A stretch of 64,000 nucleotides of DNA. It comes from Rhina ancylostomus. Taxonomy: Eukaryota. Below the pieces are notes generated by a model. It was given only the letters and a program-made list of their open reading frames with translations. It did no database searches and was not told where the DNA came from. The stretch covers positions 25,971,432 to 26,035,431 of the forward strand of contig JARFYF010000029.1 of assembly GCA_030265395.1 (NCBI GenBank), in the 5' to 3' direction. Position 1 is the first letter of the stretch. The number at the start of each line of letters is the position of its first letter. Below, one piece after another: positions 14,741-16,996 of the stretch. A program made the translations under genes and the position numbers.

Positions 14741-14894
14741 AATCAAGGATTGCATTTGGATTTCCATCATTTACATAGTCATTAGGTAAGTTCGCTGAAT
14801 GATTCAGGGTGAAAGGGGTTTAGGGTGCGTGGTGTTAGGGAAGGTAGATGAATATTTTGCAAATTTCAGTTGTAATGAAATAGTAATATAAGTA

Positions 14895-15145
14895 GCAACA
14901 CATAAAAAGCTGGAGGAACTCAGCAGGTCAGGCAGCGTCTATGGAGGGAAATGGACAATTGATATTTCAGGTTAAGACCCTTCATCTGGACTGGGTGGTA
15001 GTCTGGTAGTCCAGAAGAAGAGTCTCAACCCGAAACTGTTGACTGTCCATTTTCCTCCATAGAAGCTGCTTGACCTATTGAGTTCCTCCAGCTTTTTGTA
15101 TGTTGCTCCAGGTTCCAGCATCTGCAGAATCTCTTGTGTCTCCAG
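14895..15145. mobile_element. Palindromic Penelope-like terminal-repeat element with 12-bp TSD and two degenerate hammerhead motifs
   Basis: About 98-bp inverted arms (14894-14992 and 15008-15107). Flanking direct repeat GTAATATAAGTA (14883-14894) and GTAACATAAGTA (15146-15157). Each arm carries a CAGA(A/T)GA...GAAA core. Confidence 0.8.
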
Positions 15146-16996
15146 GTAACATAAGTAACTTGTTTTGGATCATGTTTAAATTTCTAAAATCTTTAAATTT
15201 GAATATGTGGTTAGATCTGAAATTTAGATCTGAATCAGTGTGTAGTATTCCAGCATGAAATGTTGCTGACTAAATGATTAAACAAGATATATTTAATAGA
15301 TTTTTTTGAATACAGTTAGATACTATGGATAAAGGGAGATAGTTTCTATTGGGTTTACAGTCAATTTCTCCTAAAATATTTTTAACCTCATAAAAGATCA
15401 TGAAATATTAACTCAAGAAATTTTCAATATAACTGCAATCCTTTGTGCTAGAAGCTAGCTCCACCTACTGTCCTGGTCACACCTCCAGATCTGAGTTAAT
15501 GACCACTGGGAGTTTCTGCTCACTGTGCTCATTTGCAGACATATGGTGGACCTAAAAATTAAACAACTTGGATTCGATAAATTTTGGGTCAAAGGAAACT
15601 AACACCTACATTTGGAAAAACTATTTTTTTAATATAATAGGAGACTGAATACTGTACTCTAACTTAATTATCAAATGGTTCTAAGTAACCTCTAAAGGAC
15701 ATTTCCAGTCATTTAAAATTGTGTTGCTCATAAGTGGTGGAGTGGATATTCTGATTAAAAATTCTGATTTCCTGCAACAAAACTTCACTTTCAACTGTGA
15801 TTGAAAGAAAAAGGAATATTTTTAAACAAACTATTCAAAAAATTACCTTTTAAAATGCTGCCCAGCTGCACTATTTCTTAACAGTGTTTGAGCCAAACTT
15901 GAAGAAATAAAAATACTTCTGAAAATGGGCTAAAGGACTTTGCCCAGAATATAAACTTGACCACTGGGACATTGAGCATGATATGACGAAGAAAGTAATT
16001 TACTCTATTACACAAATAATCAAAAAATATCTTGGTACTTCTAGCGAGGTTGAGCTGTACAGCACAGTAGAGAATGACAAGTTGTAATGGATACTCTTAC
16101 AAATATATGATGAGTGTGCATGTGCATATAGATACACTCAGTCACTCCAATTCATTTTGTGAGCCTACAAAGATGACCAGCATGGAAATTGCCATACTGA
16201 AGTTATAGGAGTGGGATTGCAGTACATTATTGGCACATTATATGCAGAGGTCCTTTCTGAGATACTATTAACTTTGAAATGATGCTAATGCTGACAGTGT
16301 AAAAATGCATTGCCCATTTTAAGAAATAATACAGTTTCTTTCCTTTGTAACCACCAATAATACACTTCAATTATCGAAAAAAAACTTTAGAATTTCAGCT
16401 TTATTATTCATGTGGGCAAGTTCCTTTAGATAAACCCAGGGTAGTTTATNNNNNNNNNNNNNNNNNNNNNNNNNNNNNNNNNNNNNNNNNNNNNNNNNNN
16501 NNNNNNNNNNNNNNNNNNNNNNNNNNNNNNNNNNNNNNNNNNNNNNNNNGAATTTCACTGCCCCTGTTTAGTTTGCATTGAATTAATATTCAGAAGTTTG
16601 TAGTAAGTTTCATTAGAACAAAAATTAAATTATTCAATACAGCACAAATTCTGTTTATAAATTGGCCACTGGCATTTTTTCTTCCTTCAGAATTAGATTT
16701 TAGAACTCTCCACATTTCACAGCTCGACTTCAATAAATTTTGTTTTATGGTGCAGTTATTAGTGAAATCCATGCTGTTTGGATAAATGTCTGTGCTTCAG
16801 ATTAATCTCCGTTGAAGTCCCAGTATTAGACGTTCAGCAGAGCAGAAGGTAACTCAGGGATATAGAATTATTGGCTGACAATTGTCAAATTATTTGGTTA
16901 GATATTTAGTGTAAACACATTTATCTTAGATCTGCCTTCCTGAGAGGAGGAGTGGGTGGGGGCAGGGGGGTAGTCATCTTATTGCCAAGATGTTGA

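What the first reader, a model, noticed from the sequence alone, without database searches (positions are those of the whole stretch)
14883..15157. TSD-flanked palindromic mini-retroelement carrying two opposed minimal hammerhead-ribozyme motifs
Seen: a non-coding 251-bp insert with ~98-bp inverted arms and a 12-bp target-site duplication (11/12 identical). The plus arm (15008-15044) reads AGTC-CAGAAGA-A-GAGT ctca ACCC-GAAA-CTGTT-GACT. The minus arm (14993-14956) reads CAGTC-CAGATGA-A-GGGT ctta ACCT-GAAA-TATC-AATTG. This is type I hammerhead order: stem I, CUGANGA box, stem II, GAAA, vestigial stem III, stem I. Established: Penelope-like retroelements carry minimal type I hammerheads with a very short stem III in their terminal repeats, and they often insert with an inverted repeat copy. 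Inference: this is a non-autonomous, retrozyme-like unit mobilised as a palindrome, so transcription from either strand yields a ribozyme motif. Both arms have CAGA instead of CUGA, so the U4>A change probably predates insertion. It may define an elasmobranch variant or a dead lineage.
Basis: partly seen in the sequence, partly recalled or inferred. Interest (0 to 1): 0.7.

Follow-up and report, generated by a model that had tools for sequence, protein, structure and literature searches.

The report
Penelope stub with mutated ribozyme core
This is a decayed, mirror-image stub of a common jumping gene whose self-cutting RNA motif carries a change that likely disables it, yet that changed version spread to thousands of places, which suggests the cutting is not needed for the gene to jump.

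Summary
In detail: a 251-bp insert, ~100-bp inverted arms, a 12-bp target-site duplication, and minimal type I hammerhead order in both arms with CAGA for CUGA. It is not a retrozyme-like unit mobilised as a palindrome. It is the terminal ~135 nt of a Neptune-type Penelope-like element (hammerhead plus 38-nt 'tail') joined head-to-head to a tail-less copy, a published layout. Only 7 of 70 CAGA copies are palindromes, the central spacer differs at all 30 palindromic loci examined, and longer copies run on into a GIY-YIG ORF.

The U4>A change is a real subfamily trait: 1561 A versus 1479 U versus 178 C/G exact matches genome-wide. It is linked to other diagnostic bases, older than the CUGA subfamily, joined to endonuclease-coding copies and present in other species. 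It probably cannot cleave (not assayed), so this lineage likely amplified without a working ribozyme. Copy 5' ends pile up at the start of hammerhead stem I, sometimes with an extra G, hinting at the RNA's capped start. The scan noted similar palindromes in two other genomes. Known architecture, modestly new variant.

The parts
14883..14894 (.). left copy of 12-bp target-site duplication
   Evidence: family-wide, 16 of 30 palindromic loci score >=8 for a duplication vs 2.6% of 870 mismatched flank pairs
14894..14993 (-). inverted, tail-less copy of the element end (positions ~1-100)
14956..14993 (-). minimal type I hammerhead-like motif, core CAGAUGA (A at position 4 = 14987), stem I damaged
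14994..15007 (.). locus-specific junction spacer
   Evidence: spacers 1-24 nt, none identical in 30 loci, enriched for short pieces of the hammerhead start
15008..15107 (+). direct copy of the element end (positions ~2-100)
15007..15045 (+). minimal type I hammerhead-like motif, core CAGAAGA (A at position 4 = 15013), stem II mismatch and one extra base
15108..15145 (+). 38-nt Penelope-type 'tail', present on one arm only
   Evidence: alignment; bimodal 3' ends in 233 arms; tail described in PMC8557442 preprint, PMC3846280, PMC11167929
15146..15157 (.). right copy of 12-bp target-site duplication

Best explanation
This is an old, decayed insertion of the terminal ~135 nt of a Penelope-like retrotransposon joined head-to-head to a tail-less copy of the same end; the mirror image likely formed during this one insertion, and its CAGA hammerhead core, a trait of a high-copy subfamily, likely does not cleave. 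Shown: the arm is the 3' end of a longer element (GIY-YIG ORF, pyrimidine-rich UTR, hammerhead, tail); most copies are not palindromes; A4 marks a subfamily. Inferred mechanism: the element's RT-endonuclease nicks both target strands 8-15 bp apart and starts reverse transcription inside the RNA at two sites (~+100 and ~+135), as shown in vitro for an anole Poseidon element. Each cDNA runs to the RNA's 5' end at hammerhead stem I, and the two are joined through a few re-copied or untemplated bases. The lineage would thus have spread without ribozyme cleavage.
For: Link to the element: 20 of 26 A4 loci (one is the query) have a same-strand GIY-YIG C-terminal hit upstream; Pfam GIY-YIG E=0.002 on a U4 copy and RVT_1 E=4e-4 on another, both below curated cut-offs; 8 of 10 long homologues tested carry both domains; CX4CxxC linker in several copies. 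Architecture: of 70 A4 copies, 33 have the UTR upstream, 26 were classed solo, 7 inverted, 1 short remnant, 3 unreadable; spacers all differ and resemble the hammerhead start more than shuffles do (mean longest match 5.7 vs 4.3, 0 of 1000, n=18); 3' ends peak at model 95-109 (77 of 233) and 130-134 (94 of 233). A4: 1561 vs 1479 U vs 178 C/G; in 3'-anchored samples 24 of 32 'CC' copies but 1 of 34 'TT' copies have A4. 5' ends: 21 of 86 at positions 0-5, 3 of 86 at 29-37 around the predicted cleavage site; G at position 1 in 16 of 80 UTR-less vs 1 of 130 UTR-bearing arms. Literature: inverted 5'-truncated copy plus 30-40 bp tail is typical; two internal RT starts, both strands nicked, ribozyme mutants still insert; CUGA mutants have low activity.
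Against: No cleavage assay. No full-length A4 element was found, and no Pfam RT hit on an A4 copy (7 of 8 fragments without any hit). No shared sequence was found downstream of the tail in 112 tailed arms, so the RNA's continuation is unseen. 52 of 80 UTR-less arms have C, not G, at position 1, and two of the 16 G arms came from a pattern that allowed G. Arms of one locus are only slightly more alike than arms of different loci (81.2% vs 79.3%) and disagree at position 4 in 4 of 30 loci. Arkhipova et al. explain head-to-head palindromes by self-priming on an antisense template. Stem covariation is weak.
Confidence: 0.8

Rival explanations
1. A non-autonomous, retrozyme-like or MITE-like unit of ~250 bp is copied whole as a palindrome, giving a ribozyme motif from either strand.
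For: 30 loci share the same two-arm layout with duplications, but they were selected by a palindromic query.
Against: No two of 30 spacers identical; only 7 of 70 A4 copies are palindromes and their inverted arms vary in length; no arm-specific majority differences beyond three CpG-decaying columns in positions 1-96; read-through RNA folds into one hairpin; non-LTR retrozymes are head-to-tail tandems.
Confidence: 0.05
2. Same element and same one-off origin, but the mirror image arises by self-priming (fold-back) on an antisense template or on the first cDNA, not by two primings.
For: Proposed for rotifer elements (PMC3846280); arms of a locus share slightly more minority bases than arms of different loci (3.4 vs 2.4, 0 of 10000 permutations).
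Against: Does not by itself explain why one arm has the tail and the other stops at the second 3' peak; 4 of 30 loci have arms that differ at position 4.
Confidence: 0.3
3. The A4 core is a working natural hammerhead variant that cleaves as a dimer or with the element's protein.
For: Other core and stem II positions are about 80-100% conserved in the subfamily outside CpG sites; the anole ribozyme cleaves only with protein; a U4C variant keeps a viroid infectious.
Against: Conservation in dead copies only reflects the source element; all CUGA-turn single mutants had low activity in one type III ribozyme; other subfamilies here carry other core changes; no clear 5' peak at the cleavage site.
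Confidence: 0.12

Closest known systems
Complex insertions of EN+ Penelope-like elements (inverted 5'-truncated pLTR plus 30-40 bp tail; PMC8557442 and its preprint, PMC3846280)
   Same: Head-to-head inverted copy, tail on one arm only, 8-15 bp duplication, hammerhead in the terminal repeat, GIY-YIG ORF upstream in longer copies.
   Different: Reduced to the last ~135 nt with no ORF; both arms stop at hammerhead stem I, a recurring end point in this family.
Minimal type I hammerheads of metazoan PLEs (Cervera and de la Pena 2014, PMC4209133)
   Same: Stem I of 5 bp, extra base after position 9, G-C at the base of stem II, palindromic ACGU stem III in the best-kept family copies.
   Different: A at position 4 in about half the strict matches; the text I read reports U3-A8 as a core variant, not A4. 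Stem II is 4 bp.
Poseidon_Ac (PAc) of the green anole (Frangieh et al. 2024, PMC11167929)
   Same: Two 3' ends separated by a tail; hammerhead just upstream of them.
   Different: PAc has a canonical core and belongs to Poseidon; this family has the linker Zn-finger-like motif of Neptune/Nematis.
Non-LTR retrozymes (bioRxiv 10.64898/2026.07.22.740005; PMC7229834, listing only)
   Same: Short, non-coding, type I hammerhead, related to PLE terminal repeats.
   Different: Those are head-to-tail tandem units; this is a head-to-head one-off stub whose sequence is continuous with endonuclease-coding copies.

Membership tests
EN+ Penelope-like element | C-terminal GIY-YIG endonuclease in the same element | tested here: met
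   (20 of 26 A4 loci); not in the window copy itself
EN+ Penelope-like element | RT upstream of the endonuclease in one ORF | tested here: inconclusive
   weak RVT_1 hit in a U4 copy; 8 of 10 long homologues have both domains; an A4 locus (L250) has an RT-thumb-like frame by eye only
EN+ Penelope-like element | Terminal repeat with hammerhead, optional 30-40 bp tail, inverted truncated copy, short duplication | tested here: met
Neptune/Nematis clades | CX2-5CxxC motif in the RT-EN linker | tested here: met
   CX4CxxC in L235, L238, L242; definition; decayed in the A4 locus L250
Neptune/Nematis clades | RT phylogeny with named reference elements | not testable with these tools
   no named PLE references available
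Minimal type I hammerhead | Stem I, stem II, GAAA and A15.1-U16.1 in type I order | tested here: met
   86% of 300 cells paired vs at most 41% for slid controls; covariation weak (3 of 500 shuffles for the score, 92 of 500 for pairs changed on both sides) and confounded by CpG decay
Minimal type I hammerhead | CUGANGA core | tested here: not met
   CAGA in both arms and in the subfamily
Minimal type I hammerhead | Self-cleavage | not testable with these tools
   needs an assay; no clear genomic 5' peak at the predicted site
Non-LTR retrozyme | Head-to-tail tandem units each with a hammerhead, no link to an ORF | tested here: not met
   head-to-head here; copies continue into UTR and GIY-YIG ORF
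Non-LTR retrozyme | Circular RNA intermediate | not tested
   no suitable data laid

The most novel reading that the evidence does not exclude
The CAGA core is a working natural hammerhead variant: a whole Penelope-like lineage spread to roughly 20,000 copies with U4>A because its ribozyme still cleaves as a dimer or with help from the element's own protein, which would extend the known hammerhead core.
Probability: 0.1. Interest if true: 0.7.

Novelty: new variant of a known kind. Interest (0 to 1): 0.3.

Why it matters
What the hammerheads in Penelope-like elements are for is open. One in vitro study found ribozyme mutants still insert, and the Naiad clade lacks the motif. A lineage that reached thousands of copies with a core change expected to stop cleavage would be natural evidence on that question, testable with a simple A4 versus U4 assay. 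The pile-up of 5' ends at stem I and the two 3' ends also offer a genomic read-out of where the RNA starts and where copying begins. The window's copy itself is a dead stub with no sign of function.

Tried and rejected
Rfam scan of 12000-18000: no hammerhead match at E up to 10. Search of the large protein collection for longer relatives of a 304-aa fragment: none scored (weak evidence, the HMMER library search found them). Shared sequence downstream of the tail: none in 112 tailed arms beyond a duplicate locus and two short unrelated matches. A spliced-junction origin for the 5' pile-up: rejected, since most UTR-less arms keep the AG and share no upstream exon. No RNA holder listed for this exact stretch. 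RNA reads of another species laid on an A4 copy came from both strands with no start or end peak; these are ordinary RNA-seq reads from many copies and say nothing on cleavage. Orthologous insertion: one contig of another organism spans 15119-15458, but only 27 letters lie in the element, under the tool's 31-letter rule. Host gene: no Pfam match in the 100 longest of 160 N-free frames of 62 aa or more. Literature searches for an A4 core or an extra G in PLEs found no report; supplements were not read.

Full report
Observation. The 12-bp duplication (14883-14894, 15146-15157; 11 of 12 identical), the 251-bp insert and both motifs are as described. The arms 14894-14993 and 15008-15107 match at 84 of 100 columns, and the unit folds as a single hairpin, z = -15.9 against 200 shuffles. 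Both motifs carry further damage at this locus and fold no better than shuffles on their own. Rfam has no match.

Family. The own-genome search gave 7288 candidates, of which 40 were scored; 30 loci were fetched, the window's included. All 30 show two arms, with the longer 3' end on one arm. A duplication scoring 8 or more was found at 16 of 30 loci (3 have N in a flank) against 2.6% of 870 mismatched pairs. These loci were chosen by a palindromic query, so I sampled again by short motifs. Of 70 copies with the A4 core, 33 have a pyrimidine-rich UTR upstream, 26 were classed solo (about four of them look like short UTR remnants by eye), 7 have an inverted arm, 1 a short remnant and 3 are unreadable; of 50 U4 copies, 10 are inverted (a few rows were cut from view, totals were not). 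In 80 stretches of 10 kb (70 evenly spaced, 10 beside the window; 98 kb N) a profile found 110 arms of several subfamilies.

Link to a Penelope-like element. The UTR leads upstream into a GIY-YIG C-terminus (Pfam E = 0.002, below cut-off), with 33,942 candidates in the genome. Searching with an A4 copy's UTR gave 30 loci, 26 with A4; 20 of these 26, one being the query, have a same-strand GIY-YIG hit upstream. Longer copies show a CX4CxxC linker and RT fragments; Pfam gave one weak RVT_1 hit, on a U4 copy, and nothing on the other 7 fragments. Of 10 long homologues tested from the protein library, 8 carry both RVT_1 and GIY-YIG. The linker motif defines Neptune and Nematis (PMC8557442, passages). 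An RT joined to an A4 copy is inferred, not shown. That the host is a shark or ray is recalled and echoed by earlier notes, not shown by a call.

The palindrome is made at each insertion. Spacers run from 1 to 24 nt and no two of 30 are identical; the 18 of 8 nt or more resemble the hammerhead start more than their shuffles (5.7 vs 4.3; 0 of 1000). Arms of one locus are slightly more alike than arms of different loci (81.2% vs 79.3%, 0 of 10000 permutations); position 4 agrees in 24 of 30, differs in 4 and is unreadable in 2. 3' ends of 233 arms have two peaks, at model 95-109 (77) and 130-134 (94). This matches the published layout: an inverted 5'-truncated copy and a 30-40 bp tail at one end (bioRxiv 10.1101/2021.04.23.441226, passages; PMC3846280, passages). 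In the anole element the tail is the stretch between two internal RT start sites, both DNA strands are nicked and extended, and ribozyme mutants still insert (PMC11167929, parts 1-2 of 4).

The U4>A core. With one pattern differing only at position 4, the genome has 1561 A, 1479 U and 178 C or G matches. In samples anchored downstream of the motif, 24 of 32 readable 'CC' copies and 1 of 34 'TT' copies have A4; A4 copies are more diverged from their majority (10.6% vs 7.0% at non-CpG sites, p = 4e-4), so that burst looks older (66 of 100 copies were readable). The descriptor found 8 A4 cores among 28 motifs in the 800-kb sample, which extrapolates roughly to 20,000. A4 is also read in three other coded organisms, in about two thirds of laid reads in organism B, with a bias towards the A-bearing reference. 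Deep mutagenesis of one type III hammerhead found low activity for all CUGA-turn mutants except the C-G swap (PMC9901934, passages); a U4C viroid variant is weak in vitro but infectious (PMC3088659, passages). Minimal PLE hammerheads cleave poorly even with a normal core (PMC4209133, parts 1-2 of 4). The stems hold across 30 motifs (86% of cells paired, slid controls at most 41%), but covariation is weak and blurred by CpG decay.

5' ends. Among 86 N-free, downstream-anchored copies, 21 end at positions 0-5 (start of stem I) and 3 at 29-37 around the predicted cleavage site; about five could start near it by eye. G replaces C at position 1 in 16 of 80 UTR-less arms and 1 of 130 UTR-bearing arms; two of the 16 came from a pattern that allowed G, and 52 of 80 keep C. 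TCAGTC resembles an initiator, and an extra G is a known mark of a copied cap (both recalled); Penelope has an internal promoter (PMC2377424, passages). I read this as a hint that the RNA starts at stem I.

Mechanism and status. Shown: identity as a PLE end, one-off junctions, two 3' ends, A4 subfamily. Inferred: two primings at the two internal sites, copying to the RNA 5' end, joining through short re-copied bases, and no cleavage by A4. Rivals are fold-back self-priming (0.3, changes only the route), a working A4 core (0.12) and a palindrome copied whole (0.05).

Novelty. The layout and the minimal hammerhead are in print. Searches found no report of an A4 lineage, but I did not read the supplements of PMC4209133 or of the 2026 retrozyme preprint (part 1 of 5 and passages; it sampled one chondrichthyan), and Repbase/Dfam were not available. 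Two earlier notes of this scan describe similar palindromes in other genomes; a look-up by sequence found none. Verdict: new variant of a known kind, interest 0.3.

Noticed in passing
L091-L110, L141-L200 (800-kb sample): Other subfamilies carry other recurring core changes: C at position 9 (7 of 28 motifs, CUGAUGC-like) and loss of G8 (CUGACAA-like, 3 of 28), the latter with a U-A pair at the base of stem I. Core loss may have happened several times.
   Followed up: partly
window 58657-58932 (+), 57669-57725 (+), 52198-52275 (-): Three more decayed pieces of related element ends, one with its UTR.
   Followed up: no
window 14389-14740: A frame resembling the C-terminus of a CR1-type LINE just left of the insertion (label recalled, no Pfam match).
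   Followed up: no
L267, L251, L271, L304, L289: Palindromes with very short inverted arms; in L267 the two arms overlap on CAGTC, the self-complementary stem I, suggesting a junction by microhomology.
   Followed up: no
L242:2058-4264, L244:355-2485: Longer U4 copies with RT fragments, linker, GIY-YIG, UTR and hammerhead in order; frames are broken.
   Followed up: partly
window 15119-15458: A contig of coded organism N covers the tail end and right flank with 16 differences, a weak hint that the insertion is shared between species.
   Followed up: partly
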